Shown piece by piece: positions 6,261-33,337 of a DNA stretch of 64,000 nt. Positions within the stretch are counted from its first letter, which is position 1. Every line of letters begins with the position of its first letter. This stretch comes from Escherichia phage UPEC01. The stretch lies in the sequence record MW233709. One strand, given 5' to 3'. The notes under the pieces were generated by a model. The model was not told the origin of the DNA. It ran no database searches and saw only the letters and a list, made by a program, of their open reading frames with translations. A program made the position numbers and the translations under genes.

Positions 6261-6264
6261 TTCA

Positions 6265-6290
6265 GGGACTCTTCGGAGTCCCTTTTTTAT
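6265..6290 (+). terminator. intrinsic terminator
   Basis: GGGACTC-TTCG-GAGTCCC followed by TTTTTTATTTT. Confidence 0.7.
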
Positions 6291-6303
6291 TTTCCATAAA
6301 GGG

Positions 6304-6333
6304 GTTTACAACAGGGTTGGTCCAGTGCATAAT
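6304..6333 (+). promoter_or_regulatory. early promoter with conserved leader
   Basis: GTTTAC 6304-6309, 18-nt spacer, CATAAT 6328-6333; downstream 23 nt identical to copy at 30559. Confidence 0.55.
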
Positions 6334-6374
6334 GATTCCATACTGAGTTACACAATAAAACACTGGAGAATAAA

Positions 6375-6743
6375 ATGAAAATCAATCTTAACTCATACAT
6401 CAAAGGTAAAGACCACGACGGTTACAAAGCCATTGAAACTAAAGAAATGCAATGGCACTTGTATAAAGAACAATTTGAATTCGTTTCTTGCATGACTCCA
6501 GAAGGTCCTTCTGATGACTTCTCCTGGAAAATTATGGTAACAAACTTTTTTACTGGTGATACCTACGAACTGAAAACTTTGATTCTTGGTAAGATTCGTT
6601 GTAAGACCTATGAAGATGAAGAAACTGGTTATTCTGAAGATGTTACATGGTATCAAAATGGTCGCACCACTGCTGATGATTTGATTGAAAAAATGAAAGC
6701 TAAGGGTGAATTAAATTTAGATAATTGGATTAAAGTCGCATAA
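6375..6743 (+). CDS. hypothetical early protein (30.x-like cluster)
   Basis: 122-aa ORF with early promoter at 6304-6333 and SD GGAG; leader nearly identical to that of ORF 30606. Confidence 0.5.
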   Translation: MKINLNSYIKGKDHDGYKAIETKEMQWHLYKEQFEFVSCMTPEGPSDDFSWKIMVTNFFTGDTYELKTLILGKIRCKTYEDEETGYSEDVTWYQNGRTTADDLIEKMKAKGELNLDNWIKVA

Positions 6744-27909: not shown

Positions 27910-27940
27910 AAAAAAGGGCCGCAAGGCCCTTATTCTTTTT
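27908..27940. terminator. bidirectional intrinsic terminator (rnlB + / gene 24 paralog -)
   Basis: AAAAAAAA-GGGCC-GCAA-GGCCC-TTATTCTTTTT. Confidence 0.7.
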
Positions 27941-29213
27941 CCAGTGGCGGAAGTTTAACGCCAAGATAAGAACTCAATTGGCTTTGGTTAGCCATCTTAT
28001 CCATATCAGCCCCATCAATAAGGCGGGCTTCTTTATCGTCTTTAGCAACGGTATAGGGGTTCGCTGTCAATGCATAACGAGCTAACAGTGCAACCGTAGG
28101 CTGTAAGCTTTCAGGGTCAACAATAACCTTGAATTCTCCGACCGATGTATCCCCCTCATCATCAACTTCGCTAAGTCCTTCCGTATAAGGCGCATAATAC
28201 AAAGATGCGACCGTCTGACCTTCACCCATATCAGCATTTACACCGACAATAACATAATCACATGGACTATTCATATCTGCGTAAAGAGGCAAACCGTTCT
28301 TCAGAACACCATAGGCTAATTCATCCTGGTCTTCCTTTTTCTCAACCCAGCCAGAAGCGGCTAAAATAGCTGCACAACGGGAAGAAGCAACCGCATATGT
28401 ACCAGCAAACGAAGTCTGACGTTGAACTGCAGAATTCATTTCACACATATAATAATACAGGGTTCGTGCGCGGTCCTGTGCGTTATCATATTTCGGGTCA
28501 GTGAGATTCAACACACCTTTTTCAGAAACACCTTGTACCTTGAAGCGAGAACTAACAGTAATAAGGGATTGCAATACATCCTTATTAATTTCCTCTGCCA
28601 TTTGAATGCCGAGAATATTATCGATGAAGTCTGTTGCATCGAAACCGTTTGCTTCCAGGTCCTGAGCAAGCTCGACAGTTAAAGAAGTTTTCAACTTTCT
28701 GGATTTAACTTCAGTCTGCCATTTATCGATACGGAAACCAGCTTCAGCAATTTCAGGATGCCCCTTTTCAAATTTATCAGTGAAAGCAGCATCTGACATC
28801 ATTCTTATATGTCCAGCAGCAATGGCTTCAGAAATAACTTCACCTAAATCAGTTTCGAGTGTCCCGGCAAAGGGGGAAGCTTCCAGAACTTTGAATACAA
28901 CGCTTTCAAACTGAAACATATCGCCGACTGCATAAGCTTCATCTTTGTTCGTAAATTCTGGAATATTCTTACGCTCGAACATACCAATCTGACCTGCAAA
29001 TGTTGCTCCACCGAGATATGTCATTTTATCATCTGGGTTCAGAACACGAACACCATACAACGCTGCAACAGGCTGTGTAGTTTTCTGTTCGGCAACGAGT
29101 GCTTTAAAAATTCGTTTATTCGTGGCCTGGGTATAAGAAAGCAAATTAGGACGGGCGACCTGGTTGGCCGCCGTTAATGTTGATTCGTGAATTAGTGCGT
29201 TAATCTTTTGCAT
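27930..29213 (-). CDS. head vertex protein gp24 paralog (diverged second copy)
   Basis: 427 aa; shares gp24 family blocks (VKSRKLKT.LTVELAQDLEANGF, EINKDVLQSLITVS, FKVIVDPESLQP, ANPYTVAKDDKEAR) with the upstream copy but is clearly diverged. Confidence 0.8.
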   Translation of the reverse strand: MQKINALIHESTLTAANQVARPNLLSYTQATNKRIFKALVAEQKTTQPVAALYGVRVLNPDDKMTYLGGATFAGQIGMFERKNIPEFTNKDEAYAVGDMFQFESVVFKVLEASPFAGTLETDLGEVISEAIAAGHIRMMSDAAFTDKFEKGHPEIAEAGFRIDKWQTEVKSRKLKTSLTVELAQDLEANGFDATDFIDNILGIQMAEEINKDVLQSLITVSSRFKVQGVSEKGVLNLTDPKYDNAQDRARTLYYYMCEMNSAVQRQTSFAGTYAVASSRCAAILAASGWVEKKEDQDELAYGVLKNGLPLYADMNSPCDYVIVGVNADMGEGQTVASLYYAPYTEGLSEVDDEGDTSVGEFKVIVDPESLQPTVALLARYALTANPYTVAKDDKEARLIDGADMDKMANQSQLSSYLGVKLPPLEKE

Positions 29214-30494
29214 TTACGCCTCATAAATGATTGGCGGAAGTTTAACACCGAGCAGATAAGACATATTGCTCTGACCGGCCATTAAATCCATATTGGTTGC
29301 ATCGATAATACGAGCTTCTTTATCGTCTTTAGCAACGGTGTAAGGGTTAGCTGAAAGTGCATAACGAACCATCAAAGAGATAGCTGGTTGCAAACTGTCA
29401 GGGTCCACAATGACTTTAAACGCGCCTACATGCTCTTCATCATCTAAGTCCAGGCCTTCGGTATAAGGAGCATAGAAGATTGAGCCTACGACTTCGTTTC
29501 CGCCGTAATTTTCTTTAACGCCAACGGTTACATAATCCAATGGACTGTTAACATCACAGAATACAGGAAGACCATTAATCAAATAACCGTACGCTGTTTC
29601 AGGAAGCCACTGTTCGTCTTCAGGTTTATGCTTCAGCCAGCCAGAACCGGCCAACATAGCAGCAACACGGCTGGAGGCAACAACAAAGGTACCGGAATAA
29701 GATGTAGTTTTCTGAATTTCGGAGTTCATTTCGCAAACCAGTTCGTACAGTTTACGTGCGCCTTCTGGAGCTGCATCATATGTTAAATCGATGGTGCCAT
29801 TGTCAGAAACACCAGTTACTTTATAACGCTTGGAAACGGTAATAAGAGACTGAAGAACATCTTTGTTAATTTCATCTGCCATAATAGTAGCAAGCAGGTC
29901 TTCCAGGAAAGCAGGAGCATTAAAGCCATTTGCTTCCATATCCTGAGCAAGCTCAACAGTTAATGCAGTTTTCAATTTACGGGATTTAACAGGAGCATTC
30001 CATTTATTAACCTGGAATACAGCGTTACTAATTTCAACATCACCGGCTTCAAATTTCTCGGTGTGCGCTGCATCAGGAACCAAACGAATGGTTAATGCAA
30101 TAAGACCTTCTTGCAGAACATCTGATAATACAGTTTCGGTAGTCGATGCAAATGGATTATCAACCAGAGCTTTGTAAACGATATTTTGGTATTTTACATA
30201 TTCGCCTTTAGCAACAGGCTGAGTGGCTGTAGTTAATTCTGGAATAGTTGTACGGTCTTTAGAACCGACTTCGCCTCCATAAGTAGCGCCCGTCTGGAAA
30301 CTGAATTCATTATCAGGAGTAAGATATTTAACACCATACAGTGCAGCAACAGGCTGGTTAGTACGTTGTTCAGCGATGATATCGCGGTAAATCAATTTAG
30401 TCGTAGCGCGGGTCAAAGCAACAAGATTCGGGCGGCCCAATGAGTTGCTGGTAGTAATAGTTGACTCGCGCAGTAATTTGTTAATCTTTGCCAT
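29214..30494 (-). CDS. 24: head vertex protein gp24
   Basis: 426 aa; MAKINKLLRESTITTSNSLGRPNLVALTRATTKLIY... closely matches recalled T4 gp24; late promoter at 30521-30528. Confidence 0.9.
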   Translation of the reverse strand: MAKINKLLRESTITTSNSLGRPNLVALTRATTKLIYRDIIAEQRTNQPVAALYGVKYLTPDNEFSFQTGATYGGEVGSKDRTTIPELTTATQPVAKGEYVKYQNIVYKALVDNPFASTTETVLSDVLQEGLIALTIRLVPDAAHTEKFEAGDVEISNAVFQVNKWNAPVKSRKLKTALTVELAQDMEANGFNAPAFLEDLLATIMADEINKDVLQSLITVSKRYKVTGVSDNGTIDLTYDAAPEGARKLYELVCEMNSEIQKTTSYSGTFVVASSRVAAMLAGSGWLKHKPEDEQWLPETAYGYLINGLPVFCDVNSPLDYVTVGVKENYGGNEVVGSIFYAPYTEGLDLDDEEHVGAFKVIVDPDSLQPAISLMVRYALSANPYTVAKDDKEARIIDATNMDLMAGQSNMSYLLGVKLPPIIYEA

Positions 30495-30520
30495 TTGCGC
30501 TTTCCTTTTGTGATATACTT

Positions 30521-30528
30521 TATTTATA
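30521..30528 (-). promoter_or_regulatory. late promoter upstream of gene 24
   Basis: TATAAATA on - strand 27 nt upstream of gp24 ATG. Confidence 0.6.
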
Positions 30529-30534
30529 AAAGTT

Positions 30535-30564
30535 GTTTACAACCAGATTAAGATAAGACATAAT
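30535..30564 (+). promoter_or_regulatory. early promoter with conserved leader
   Basis: GTTTAC 30535-30540, 18-nt spacer, CATAAT 30559-30564; leader matches copy at 6328. Confidence 0.55.
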
Positions 30565-30605
30565 GATTCCATACTGAGTTAACAAACAAAACCTGGAGTT
30601 TAAAA

Positions 30606-30887
30606 ATGAACAAAGCAACTTTCCTTCTGAACACCTTTAAAAAATTGGAAATTGAAGTTATTGCATTGGTCAACAAATACCCAAATGGCGTTAATGGTAA
30701 TGCTCTGAACAAACTAGTTAAAAAATATGAAAACTTAGCATATGACACTGATTTCTGGTGGAATGGTAATTATTCTACTCACACTAAAGATAAAAATGGT
30801 AACTGGTTGAAACTTCAAGAAAACAATGTTAACTTCAGAGACCTCATCAAGCGCCGGGTAGAAGTTCATTTAAATGGTATGGTATGA
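30606..30887 (+). CDS. hypothetical early protein inserted between genes 24 and 23
   Basis: 93-aa ORF on opposite strand to the capsid operon; own early promoter 30535-30564, SD GGAG, bidirectional terminator 30895-30921. Confidence 0.55.
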   Translation: MNKATFLLNTFKKLEIEVIALVNKYPNGVNGNALNKLVKKYENLAYDTDFWWNGNYSTHTKDKNGNWLKLQENNVNFRDLIKRRVEVHLNGMV

Positions 30888-30894
30888 AAACAAG

Positions 30895-30921
30895 AAAGGG
30901 ACCTCAAGGGTCCCTTTTTAT
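30895..30921. terminator. bidirectional intrinsic terminator (ORF 30606 + / gene 23 -)
   Basis: AAA-GGGACC-TCAAG-GGTCCC-TTTTTATTT. Confidence 0.65.
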
Positions 30922-30937
30922 TTAACTTAATCTAAGA

Positions 30938-32497
30938 TTAAATTCCTTTAACATATACGCGGCGGAAGTAACCGTTCAAGCCGAGGCTGTTAACGATGTC
31001 CGGCATGCCGTTTTGAATACGCTTGGTCGGAGCCTGAGCTGTCGGGTCAGCGAACGGGTTAATACCGATACCGTAACGGGTTTTGAAGCCCATAACCGGC
31101 TGGAAGTTTTTCGGGTCAGAGCCACGCAGCGGAGTCAGTGCAACATATGGTGCATAGTAGATACCAGCATCCATTTCGTTAGCGCCTTTGTAACCGATGG
31201 TGAAGTAGTCTGCACGAGCATACTGGTCGATATAGACACGGTATTTGCCACCCAGAACACCAGCGAACACAGCTTTAGTGGTGTCAACGTTGAAACCTTT
31301 ACCCAGACCCTGAGCAGCATAAGATACGGAGGTATCAACTGCAGCCAGTACGTTAACTACGTTACGGGAAGCGATGATGAAGTTACCTGCACCACGGCCA
31401 GTCTGACGAGCGATTTCAGCAGCTTCTTTGTCAATCTGGAACAGTAAAGCTTTGAAGCTTTCACCAGCCCAACGAGCACCACGGATATCAATCGGGTCCT
31501 GGAAGTCAAACACACCAGCTTTAGCGCCAACGGTGTTGGTCATACCAGATTTACCAACCTGAGCGGAGTAGTTAATCCAATCGATAACTTCGCGGTTGAT
31601 TTCCAGCATAATTTCGGTAGCCAGAATACCACTCAATTCAGCATCAGCATCCATACCGTGGACAGCGCGGAGGTCCTGCGCCAGTTCGATAGAGTAGCTT
31701 GCTTTAAGCTGACGGGATTTAGCTTCGATAACTTGTTTGTCGATGCGGAAGCCCATTTCGTTCCACGGGTTATCAGTAGAACCGTTAAAGCCTTCCTGCA
31801 ATTCGGCGATAGAGGTAGCCATACCTTCAGCGATTTCTGCCAGCTTACCAGCTTCGAGCAGTTTGGTAACTTCAGCGTCAAGTTTAGCAGCATCAGTAGC
31901 GGCGGCATCGACGGTTACAGCTTCAACAGCCTGGTAGTGCGCAGAACCGGTTGCTTCGAAGAAGTGTGAATAAATTTTACCAACGGTAAGAACTTTGCTT
32001 GCAGCCAGAGCTTCGAAAGCTTCAGCAGCGCCCTGACCAGAGAACATAGCGTTCGGAGCATACATCGGGTGGAAAGCTTCTTTAGCACCAGCAGCTACAG
32101 GGTCTTTACCGTAAACTGCACGCAGGGCAAATACCTGGCCAGTCGGGTTGTTCAGAGGCTGTACGCCACAAATATCAAACGCAATCAGATGCGGGATAGC
32201 ACGACGAACCATACCCATAACTGCCGGCCCAATCTGAGTTACTGCGCCAGAGGTCTGGCCAGCAGCGATATTGGTAGCATCATAACCATGGTCACCACCG
32301 ATTTCAGCTTCGGTCAGGAAAGAACCAAATGCTTCGGAGATTTTTTCGTCACGGTATTCAGGAGCGGTCAGAATATCTTGTTCCTGGTTTTCAAAGATTT
32401 TAGCGATGATAGCTTGTTTAGAAGCACCAACGATTTCCGGAAGAGCTTCGTTTTCCAGCAGAGCGGACCATTTTTGAACTAATGCATTCTTTTTCAT
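30938..32497 (-). CDS. 23: major capsid protein gp23
   Basis: 519 aa; long identical stretches to recalled T4 gp23 (e.g. AIIAKIFENQE, GGDHGY.ATNIAAGQTSGAVTQIGPAVMGMVRRAIP, NFQPVMGFKTRYGIGINPFA). Confidence 0.95.
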   Translation of the reverse strand: MKKNALVQKWSALLENEALPEIVGASKQAIIAKIFENQEQDILTAPEYRDEKISEAFGSFLTEAEIGGDHGYDATNIAAGQTSGAVTQIGPAVMGMVRRAIPHLIAFDICGVQPLNNPTGQVFALRAVYGKDPVAAGAKEAFHPMYAPNAMFSGQGAAEAFEALAASKVLTVGKIYSHFFEATGSAHYQAVEAVTVDAAATDAAKLDAEVTKLLEAGKLAEIAEGMATSIAELQEGFNGSTDNPWNEMGFRIDKQVIEAKSRQLKASYSIELAQDLRAVHGMDADAELSGILATEIMLEINREVIDWINYSAQVGKSGMTNTVGAKAGVFDFQDPIDIRGARWAGESFKALLFQIDKEAAEIARQTGRGAGNFIIASRNVVNVLAAVDTSVSYAAQGLGKGFNVDTTKAVFAGVLGGKYRVYIDQYARADYFTIGYKGANEMDAGIYYAPYVALTPLRGSDPKNFQPVMGFKTRYGIGINPFADPTAQAPTKRIQNGMPDIVNSLGLNGYFRRVYVKGI

Positions 32498-32518
32498 GTG
32501 TTGTATAACCTTATTAAA

Positions 32519-33337
32519 TTAAGAAATTCGTGATGCTGCGAGAGCAGACAAGTCCGCGAAGGACAGGGTAGGCTTGGCGCCTTTTTCTTCAACTGCTTCT
32601 GAAATGTAATTCAGTGCCGCAGCATCGTCTACATTTTTATTTATAGCGGCTTCGGTGATTGGTTTGTCGGTGGGTTCTACCTGACCTTTAACCATTTCAA
32701 CGATAGCGCCAATTTTGGTACCGAATGCATCAGAGTATTCCATGCCTTCTACCAGAGAACCAACTTTTTCTTTTTGGGATTCAGTCAGGTCTTTAGTTGC
32801 TTCAGTCAACGCAACTTCACGTTGGACATAATTGATATAAGCATCACGCTTAGAAACTTCTTCGAACAGGTTAGCGGTTTCTTCTTTCTGTTCAGCCAGT
32901 TCTTCCTGCATTTCTGCAACAACATCGACAGATTCTTCTGGAACAACAACGTTGTGCTCAACGAACAGTTCTTTCATGCCGGTGAACATGGATTCGAACA
33001 GGTCAGCTTTAATGCCACGGTCGACAGCCAGTTTATTTTCAGCGAGCCATTCTTTAGCAACGTGGTCCAGGAATTTAGCTGCAGATTCTTTCAGTTTTTT
33101 CTCTGCTTTTTCGTCGGCTTCTTCTTTATTCTTTTCGACTTCTTCTTCAGCTTTTTCAGCGATGGCGTGAATGTGAGATTCTGCCAGTTTGATGGCGTGT
33201 TGCTTGACGGTAGCTTCGAATACAGTGCCGAAGGTAGCTTTCGCTTCCGGGGACAAATTAACTGATTCGAAAATACTATCGAGAGCAACGGAAGCATCGA
33301 TATTCTGAGCTTCAGAAATGAGTTGTTCTTTAAGCAT
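32519..33337 (-). CDS. 22: prohead core scaffold protein gp22
   Basis: 272 aa, highly charged helical; position between 21 and 23. Confidence 0.85.
   Translation of the reverse strand: MLKEQLISEAQNIDASVALDSIFESVNLSPEAKATFGTVFEATVKQHAIKLAESHIHAIAEKAEEEVEKNKEEADEKAEKKLKESAAKFLDHVAKEWLAENKLAVDRGIKADLFESMFTGMKELFVEHNVVVPEESVDVVAEMQEELAEQKEETANLFEEVSKRDAYINYVQREVALTEATKDLTESQKEKVGSLVEGMEYSDAFGTKIGAIVEMVKGQVEPTDKPITEAAINKNVDDAAALNYISEAVEEKGAKPTLSFADLSALAASRIS

What the first reader, a model, noticed from the sequence alone, without database searches (positions are those of the whole stretch)
30535..30921. Early-gene module inserted on the opposite strand between late capsid genes 24 and 23
A 93-aa ORF (30606-30887) on the + strand sits between gp24 and gp23, which are - strand late genes. 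It has its own sigma70-like early promoter (GTTTAC-N18-CATAAT), an SD containing GGAG and a bidirectional terminator. In T4 this position is occupied by a different, endonuclease-type gene as far as I recall. The protein has no motif I recognise (W- and N-rich C-terminal half). It is a small accessory gene of unknown function in a site known for insertions.
Basis: partly seen in the sequence, partly recalled or inferred. Interest (0 to 1): 0.6.

Follow-up and report, generated by a model that had tools for sequence, protein, structure and literature searches.

The report
Small early gene between capsid genes
A real but ordinary single-gene early cassette, encoding a conserved 93-residue protein of unknown function, sits backwards between two capsid genes of a T4-like coliphage, in the slot where T4 carries the homing endonuclease gene segD.

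Summary
The window is a Gaprivervirus (VR7/SP18-like T-even phage). A 93-aa ORF lies at 30606-30887 (+) between gp24(1) and gp23, both on the minus strand. It has a T-even-type early promoter (TTTACA-N17-CATAAT), a GGAG Shine-Dalgarno and a stable bidirectional terminator.

The gene is real. dN/dS is 0.08-0.24. It holds the same slot in Gaprivervirus, Dhakavirus (62% identity) and Mosigvirus (37%). AlphaFold gives a confident compact fold (pLDDT 89).

It is already annotated as VR7ORF190c / JS98 orf173 / phrog_6003, always "hypothetical". T4 has segD in the same slot and orientation, behind a near-identical -35 region. RB3 and other sampled T4 relatives have an empty 83-bp spacer.

The -10 box plus leader is repeated exactly in front of gene 30.8 in the window. 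An 18-mer within it occurs about 8 times per genome in relatives. This marks a PeSL-type mobile promoter/ORFan cassette, a described mechanism.

Distant homologues sit in arrays of small ORFs or beside tail genes in unrelated phages, which argues against a capsid role.

No Pfam, NCBIfam, PDB or fold match gives a function. My best inference is a non-enzymatic, host-directed early accessory protein. The case is ordinary, and interest is low to moderate.

The parts
29214..30494 (-). Gene 24(1), capsid vertex protein; left flank of the slot
   Evidence: 426-aa ORF. Annotated as 24(1) in VR7. It is 56% identical to the adjacent paralogue 24(2) at 27930-29213.
30521..30528 (-). T4-type late promoter TATAAATA of gene 24(1), back to back with the early promoter
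   Evidence: Read and listed at 30528 (-). Conserved in the window, JS98, Shf125875, T4 and RB3.
30536..30564 (+). Early sigma70-type promoter: -35 TTTACA (30536-30541), 17-nt spacer, -10 CATAAT (30559-30564); A/T-rich upstream region
   Evidence: 10/12, best in the region. Consensus TTTACW-N17-TAYWAT from PMC4122927. The -35 region is conserved in JS98, Mosigvirus and T4 segD. There is no MotA box and no + strand late promoter nearby.
30559..30581 (+). Repeated -10 box plus leader, CATAATGATTCCATACTGAGTTA; the signature of a genome-wide family of early promoter cassettes
   Evidence: Exact second copy at 6328-6350, in front of the gene 30.8 homologue. An 18-mer from it occurs 8 times per genome, all on one strand, in VR20, VR25 and VR26.
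30595..30598 (+). Shine-Dalgarno GGAG, 7 nt before the ATG, in an unstructured leader
   Evidence: Leader 30571-30625 folds at -1.6 kcal/mol, z +1.5.
30606..30887 (+). 93-aa ORF (10.9 kDa, pI 9.6) = VR7ORF190c / JS98 orf173 / phrog_6003
   Evidence: dN/dS 0.08-0.24. AlphaFold pLDDT 89.2, pTM 0.72, with helix 3-24, helix 31-48, beta-hairpin 52-61/67-71 and helix 77-89.
30893..30919 (.). Bidirectional intrinsic terminator shared by the ORF (+) and gene 23 (-)
   Evidence: Present at the same place in JS98, Mosigvirus, T4 and the empty RB3 spacer. A gene 23 terminator is reported as conserved in T4-like phages (PMC1524935).
30938..32497 (-). Gene 23, major capsid protein; right flank of the slot
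   Evidence: 519-aa ORF. 97% identical to JS98 gp23 and 84% to Mosigvirus gp23.
6263..6377 (+). Sister cassette: stem-loop terminator, early promoter (TTTACA-N17-CATAAT), identical leader, TGGAG and ATG of the gene 30.8 homologue. This is a canonical PeSL.

Best explanation
This is a self-contained, monocistronic early-gene cassette of the PeSL/ORFan type, lodged in the 23-24 intergenic slot of a Gaprivervirus.

How it most likely works:
1. Right after infection, host sigma70 RNA polymerase starts at the early promoter (TTTACA-N17-CATAAT, start site near 30571).
2. It makes a transcript of about 350 nt with an open leader and a GGAG Shine-Dalgarno.
3. Transcription stops at the hairpin that also ends gene 23 on the other strand. 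Early transcription therefore does not run antisense into gene 23, and late gene 23 transcription does not run through the cassette.
4. Gene 24(1) is served by its own late promoter, placed back to back with the early one.

The product is a soluble, basic 10.9-kDa protein: three helices with a beta-hairpin. It has no catalytic motif. It most likely acts by binding a macromolecule of the enterobacterial host, for host take-over or counter-defence. It is dispensable for core T-even functions.

Origin: the cassette was probably placed, and its cargo exchanged with segD in the T4 lineage, by recombination through the repeated promoter/stem-loop elements.

Shown here: the anatomy, conservation, purifying selection, repeat family and slot polymorphism.
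Inferred: expression timing, the recombination route and the protein's role.
For: Anatomy.

Real gene:
- dN/dS is 0.17-0.24 within Gaprivervirus and 0.08-0.09 within Dhakavirus.
- 237 phage records carry it.
- It holds the same slot and orientation in Gaprivervirus, Dhakavirus, Mosigvirus and two further T-even lineages.
- The AlphaFold model is confident.

Early class:
- The promoter matches the T-even early consensus.
- The identical -10 box and leader drive the gene 30.8 homologue beside gene 31.
- The leader recurs 8 times per genome, always co-oriented, behind stem-loop terminators.
- There is no MotA box or + strand late promoter.

Cassette and slot:
- RB3 has an empty 83-bp spacer with only the late promoter and terminator.
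- T4 has segD behind a nearly identical -35 region.
- Only 53 of 922 records hold most of the segD-containing query.
- GC is 0.33, against 0.43-0.49 in the flanking genes.
- The PeSL mechanism is described in PMC2839356 and PMC4122927.

Host-directed rather than capsid role:
- Homologues of 25-35% identity lie in long same-strand arrays of small ORFs in rV5-like and other large phages, and after the tail genes of a siphovirus.
- A pI of 9.5-9.65 is conserved across the family.
Against: - No transcript, protein or phenotype data exist for this gene or any homologue that I could find.
- The defining PeSL stem-loop is not directly upstream of this promoter. The gene 24 late promoter sits there instead.
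- The direction of events (insertion or loss) rests on parsimony alone.
- CATAAT departs from TATAAT at the first position.
Confidence: 0.6

Rival explanations
1. The protein serves capsid biology, for example as a helper for gp23/gp24 folding or for use of the duplicated gp24 vertex proteins. Its position between capsid genes would then reflect function.
For: It lies between genes 24 and 23 in every T-even lineage that has it. Several of these lineages also carry a duplicated gene 24.
Against: - It is on the opposite strand with an early promoter and no late promoter.
- Mosigvirus has the gene with a single gene 24.
- T4 and RB3 lack the gene.
- Homologues in rV5-like phages and a siphovirus are far from capsid genes.
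Confidence: 0.07
2. The ORF is a decayed remnant or domain of a homing endonuclease such as SegD, or otherwise part of a selfish element. It would have no benefit for the phage.
For: It occupies the same slot, orientation and regulatory frame as T4 segD. Its presence among T-even phages is patchy.
Against: - BLASTP against SegD gives E = 3.0, and there is no GIY-YIG or HNH Pfam hit.
- The fold is compact and confidently predicted.
- Purifying selection is strong.
- Divergence tracks that of gp23 across genera: 62% and 37% for the ORF against 97% and 84% for gp23. This fits long vertical retention.
Confidence: 0.05
3. The coding sequence is secondary. The element would matter as a transcription unit: an early promoter and terminator that insulate genes 23 and 24, or that produce RNA opposing late transcripts.
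For: The back-to-back early and late promoters and the bidirectional terminator are conserved even where the cargo differs, as with T4 segD.
Against: - dN/dS well below 1 and protein-level conservation down to 25-35% identity show selection on the protein.
- RB3 manages with an 83-bp spacer and no early promoter.
- The terminator is strong, so little antisense read-through into gene 23 is expected.
Confidence: 0.05
4. The protein is a specific counter-defence factor against an enterobacterial immune system, possibly one triggered by capsid proteins. It would be a special case of the best explanation.
For: - It is a small early protein with no enzyme motif.
- It is shared horizontally by three unrelated groups of enterobacterial phages.
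- It evolves fast relative to core genes.
- Its presence is patchy.
Against: There is no similarity to any characterised protein, including solved structures and viral models. No defence-dependent phenotype is known. The same features fit host take-over proteins equally well.
Confidence: 0.2

Closest known systems
VR7ORF190c (ADR32565.1) / JS98 orf173 (AAU29301.2) / phrog_6003, hypothetical proteins of T-even phages
   Same: Same gene. It is 92% identical to VR7ORF190c and 62% to JS98 orf173, with a full-length match to phrog_6003 (E 9e-47). Slot and orientation are the same. The exact sequence is deposited as QQG31024.1 from phage UPEC01.
   Different: Nothing of substance. All entries are called 'hypothetical', and no function has been assigned.
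PeSL (promoter-early stem-loop) ORFan cassettes of T4-type phages (Arbiol et al. 2010, PMC2839356; Comeau et al. 2014, PMC4122927)
   Same: - An early promoter matching TTTACW-N17-TAYWAT.
- A single small ORF of unknown function.
- A G+C-rich stem-loop with a T-run.
- A promoter and leader repeated many times per genome.
- Presence/absence and replacement polymorphism between relatives, and a location at a plastic spot inside a core module.
   Different: - The stem-loop is downstream of the ORF, where it doubles as the gene 23 terminator. It is not directly upstream of the promoter.
- The upstream A/T-rich stretch carries the gene 24 late promoter on the other strand.
- Mini-circle formation was not tested.
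T4 segD cassette (GIY-YIG free-standing homing endonuclease gene between genes 23 and 24)
   Same: Same slot, orientation and frame. The late promoter of gene 24 is followed by an early promoter in the same position: T4 TTTATAAAGTTATTTACAAG against window TTTATAAAAGTTGTTTACAAC. Both have a GGAG Shine-Dalgarno, a single ORF and a bidirectional terminator.
   Different: The cargo is unrelated: 223 aa for SegD against 93 aa here, BLASTP E = 3.0, and no GIY-YIG domain.
Small early host-directed proteins of T4 such as AsiA (general class; recalled from memory, not tested)
   Same: Size of about 10 kDa, inferred early expression, no enzymatic motif, dispensable and patchily distributed.

Membership tests
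phrog_6003 (PHROGs v4, unknown function) | Full-length match to the family HMM | tested here: met
   E 8.9e-47, residues 1-90 against profile positions 1-90 of 90.
PeSL-type mobile regulatory cassette | Early sigma70-like promoter of the lineage's consensus (TTTACW-N17-TAYWAT for T-evens) | tested here: met
   TTTACA-N17-CATAAT matches 11 of 12 positions.
PeSL-type mobile regulatory cassette | Stem-loop terminator immediately upstream of the promoter | tested here: not met
   Upstream lie the gene 24 5'UTR and late promoter. The only stem-loop is downstream of the ORF at 30893-30919. The sister copy at 6263-6350 and the VR26 copies do have the upstream stem-loop.
PeSL-type mobile regulatory cassette | Motif repeated through the genome next to small variable ORFs | tested here: met
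   There are two exact copies of the 22-23-nt -10 box plus leader in the window, against 0 expected. Relatives carry 8 co-oriented copies of an 18-mer from it per genome.
PeSL-type mobile regulatory cassette | Insertion, deletion or replacement polymorphism at the site between related phages | tested here: met
   Empty in RB3, segD in T4, phrog_6003 in Gaprivervirus, Dhakavirus and Mosigvirus.
PeSL-type mobile regulatory cassette | Excision as mini-circles during infection | not testable with these tools
   Needs inverse PCR on infected cells, as in PMC2839356.
Seg-type GIY-YIG homing endonuclease (as T4 SegD) | GIY-YIG catalytic domain or sequence similarity to SegD | tested here: not met
   No Pfam family at E <= 1. 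BLASTP against T4 SegD gives E = 3.0.
T4-type early gene | Transcription in the first minutes of infection by unmodified host RNA polymerase | not testable with these tools
   Only promoter-class evidence is available.
Glycosyl hydrolase family 25 (name given to the orthologue in phage EAWsc9, PQ341120.1) | Match to the GH25 domain | tested here: not met
   No Pfam or NCBIfam hit. The predicted fold is a 93-residue helical bundle. The name is a mis-annotation.

The most novel reading that the evidence does not exclude
The protein is a new-fold effector that binds and neutralises one particular enterobacterial factor, either an immune sensor or an essential host protein. It would have been passed as a single-gene cassette among T-even phages, rV5-like myoviruses and siphoviruses. 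The 23-24 slot would act as a dedicated landing pad where such cargos, this gene or segD, are exchanged through the repeated promoter and stem-loop elements.
Probability: 0.3. Interest if true: 0.55.

Novelty: new member of a known kind. Interest (0 to 1): 0.3.

Why it matters
It matters modestly.

The case gives a clean, well-bounded example of how T-even phages place single accessory genes inside the otherwise rigid capsid operon. Three states of one slot can be compared: empty, segD and phrog_6003. The occupied states share the same early promoter position, and all three share the terminator frame.

The protein is a tidy candidate for functional screens. It is one gene with its own promoter and terminator, it is conserved in more than 230 coliphage genomes used in phage therapy work, it is shared with unrelated phages, and the structure model is confident.

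It does not open a long-standing question, and nothing about it would surprise a T4 specialist.

Tried and rejected
- Pfam, NCBIfam and PADLOC scans gave nothing meaningful.
- A profile search of PDB sequences gave only chance hits, E >= 0.4.
- Foldseek against BFVD found only the protein's own family member A0A346FIP4.
- The afdb50 library was not available.
- An exhaustive HMMER search of 1.84 billion representatives gave 8 hits. One was a spurious match to an Ig-repeat protein (P0012) and one looked like an assembly chimera (P0008).
- The idea of SegD remnant homology was rejected.
- The Rfam scan of the spacer gave only sub-threshold terminator look-alikes.
- I considered whether the conserved leader pairs with the Shine-Dalgarno. 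I dropped this because the likely start site lies downstream of the UUCCA stretch and the leader is unstructured.
- Literature searches by gene names found nothing.
- A 2026 preprint on a Mosigvirus early peptide (Emp, 10.64898/2026.09.14.751387) could not be opened. Term counts suggest it does not mention gp23, gp24 or capsid, so it is probably about a different gene.
- The split RB69 copy (ORF188c/189c) was first taken as evidence that the gene is dispensable. I set that aside. The two frameshifts compensate and the middle part is conserved in the shifted frame, which looks like sequencing error.

Full report
**What is there.** The spacer between the two minus-strand ORFs 29214-30494 and 30938-32497 is 443 bp long. 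It holds one 93-codon ORF on the plus strand, at 30606-30887.
- Megablast places the window in Gaprivervirus, the VR7/SP18-like T-even coliphages. The spacer is 99.5% identical to phages TH40 and ECML-359.
- In VR7 the flanking genes are annotated as 24(1) capsid vertex protein and 23 major capsid protein. The ORF is annotated as VR7ORF190c, 'similar to JS98 ORF173c'.

**The signals.**
- The consensus scan finds TTTACA-N17-CATAAT at 30536-30564, a 10/12 match and the best in 29000-33000. It also finds a hairpin terminator at 30893-30919 on both strands.
It fits the T-even early consensus TTTACW-N17-TAYWAT from PMC4122927 at 11 of 12 positions.
- GGAG lies 7 nt before the ATG. The leader is unstructured, with z +1.5. 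The hairpin folds at -17.0 kcal/mol on the plus strand and -15.9 on the minus strand, with z -3.8 and -3.2.
- On the other strand, TATAAATA at 30528-30521 is the late promoter of gene 24(1). It sits directly against the -35 region.
- No MotA box (TGCTTNA) lies between 29636 and 31699. No plus-strand late promoter is near. No Rfam family reaches threshold.

**It is a real gene.**
- tblastn finds it in 237 phage records: 92-100% identity in Gaprivervirus, about 62% in Dhakavirus (JS98), about 37% in Mosigvirus, and 33% in one phage filed under Vequintavirinae.
- In JS98, Shf125875 and two further metagenomic T-even lineages it sits in the same slot and orientation.
- Nei-Gojobori dN/dS is 0.17-0.24 within Gaprivervirus and 0.08-0.09 within Dhakavirus.
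- gp23 is 97% identical to JS98 and 84% to Mosigvirus. The ORF is 62% and 37% identical. The ORF has therefore followed the same order of divergence while evolving much faster.
- AlphaFold2 with 17 family members gives pLDDT 89.2 and pTM 0.72. The model has helix 3-24, helix 31-48, a beta-hairpin at 52-61/67-71, and helix 77-89.
- Invariant residues are M1, K3, F6, L14, G31, N32 and Q71. N30 and N35 are nearly invariant.
- The protein is 10.9 kDa, hydrophilic and basic. A pI of 9.5-9.65 is kept across members that are only 25-35% identical.

**The slot.**
- T4 carries segD, a GIY-YIG homing endonuclease gene, between 23 and 24 on the opposite strand.
- The T4 cassette has the same frame: late promoter of 24, then an early promoter at the same position, a GGAG Shine-Dalgarno, the ORF, and a bidirectional terminator. 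The -35 regions compare as T4 TTTATAAAGTTATTTACAAG against window TTTATAAAAGTTGTTTACAAC.
- SegD and the 93-aa protein are unrelated (BLASTP E = 3.0).
- RB3 has an 83-bp spacer made only of the late promoter and the terminator.
- Only 53 of 922 records matching the T4 query hold most of the segD-containing stretch. The sampled T4-like rows span 672 bp, like RB3. Klebsiella T4-like phages are short as well.
- The slot therefore exists in three states: empty, segD and phrog_6003. By parsimony the empty state is the older one. That step is inference.

**A repeated promoter cassette.**
- The -10 box plus 17 following bases, CATAATGATTCCATACTGAGTTA, recurs exactly at 6328-6350, with 0 matches expected in shuffles.
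- There it follows a stem-loop terminator and a TTTACA -35 box. It precedes TGGAG and the ATG of a gene 30.8 homologue (PF06019) beside the gene 31 co-chaperonin homologue. This is an early-type region on the same strand.
- An 18-mer from the motif occurs 8 times per genome in VR20, VR25 and VR26. All copies are on the strand of the ORF.
- Each of the eight VR26 copies listed has an A-rich stretch, a GTGTACA, GTTTACA or GTATACA -35 box, a 17-nt spacer, a (C/T)ATAAT -10 box, the leader, a Shine-Dalgarno and an ATG. Four of the eight are preceded by a G+C-rich stem-loop with a TTTTTTATTT tail, and a fifth by a run of T.
- This matches the PeSL elements that the Krisch and Comeau groups described as mediators of ORFan shuffling in T4-type phages (PMC2839356, PMC4122927).
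- At the 23-24 site the upstream stem-loop is missing. The only hairpin is the gene 23 terminator downstream of the ORF, and it is of the same GGGACC...GGTCCC-T-run kind.
- The cassette is compositionally distinct, with GC 0.33 against 0.43 for gene 24 and 0.49 for gene 23. It resembles the 30.8 homologue at 0.34.

**What the protein does.** No function could be read from similarity.
- Nothing was found in Pfam, NCBIfam or PADLOC.
- A profile search of PDB sequences gave nothing.
- BFVD returned only the protein's own family.
- The family is tiny. There were 8 hits among 1.84 billion representatives, two of them spurious, and 18 proteins in the profile search. Every database name is 'hypothetical protein'.

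The genomic contexts of distant members are informative.
- In ABPH49 and in a 141-kb and a 35-kb metagenomic phage contig, the gene lies in long same-strand arrays of small ORFs. Neighbours include a T7 0.6-like protein, Phage_g100 and PcfJ.
- In a siphovirus contig it follows the GpJ-like tail tip genes.

A gene that works in such different virions is unlikely to serve T-even capsid assembly. Together with the early promoter class, the small size and the absence of catalytic motifs, the most likely role is an early accessory protein directed at the host, acting by binding. Host take-over and counter-defence cannot be told apart with the present data.

**Verdict.** The observation and the interpretation both stand, but the case is ordinary.
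- It is an already annotated hypothetical gene in a known plastic spot, built on a described type of mobile promoter cassette.
- The additions made here are the three-state description of the slot, the promoter frame shared with T4 segD, the repeated promoter-leader family, the cross-family distribution, and a confident structure model with no known relative.
- Interest is 0.3. Novelty is 'new member of a known kind'.

Noticed in passing
window 6263-6377: A canonical PeSL: stem-loop AGGGACTCttcgGAGTCCC plus a T-run, then TTTACA-N17-CATAAT. It shares a 23-nt identical -10 box and leader with the 23-24 cassette and drives a gene 30.8 homologue (PF06019).
   Followed up: yes
loci L027-L044 (VR20, VR25, VR26 genomes): The stretch GATTCCATACTGAGTTA just downstream of the -10 box is conserved in 8 co-oriented early promoters per genome. 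Dhakavirus and Mosigvirus use a different shared version at the 23-24 site (TACTATAGACYTATCAA). Why the discriminator and first transcribed bases are kept so strictly is unexplained.
   Followed up: partly
window 27930-29213 and 29214-30494: Tandem duplication of gene 24 (capsid vertex protein). The paralogues are 56% identical. The duplication is already annotated as 24a/24b in JS98 and 24(1)/24(2) in VR7, and is also present in a metagenomic T-even phage (L022).
   Followed up: partly
locus L007 8211-8633 (RB69, NC_004928.1): The RB69 copy of the gene is split into ORF188c and ORF189c by a +1 and a -1 frameshift that compensate each other. The middle part is conserved in the shifted frame. 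This is either a sequencing error in the 2003 record or a very recent disruption.
   Followed up: partly
locus L002 3112-3393 (phage EAWsc9, PQ341120.1); protein P0009: Mis-annotations of the family: 'glycosyl hydrolase family 25' in GenBank and 'NADPH-dependent curcumin reductase CurA' in JGI. Neither is supported by Pfam, NCBIfam or the structure model.
   Followed up: yes
window, whole: TGCTTNA (MotA-box core) occurs 72 times against 45 expected (sd 6.8). TATAAATA occurs 16 times on the minus strand and 6 times on the plus strand. This fits T4-type middle and late promoter usage.
   Followed up: no
protein P0008 (160 aa, metagenome): About 30 residues identical to the Dhakavirus-type core motif (ALVKKYE..AYATDFWWNGEYSTHTKD) are fused to an unrelated N-terminal part. 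This is probably an assembly chimera.
   Followed up: no
literature: A 2026 bioRxiv preprint on an early 'Elongasome-Modulating Peptide' of Mosigvirus AV110 (10.64898/2026.09.14.751387) appeared in a search but could not be opened. Term counts suggest it concerns another gene.
   Followed up: partly
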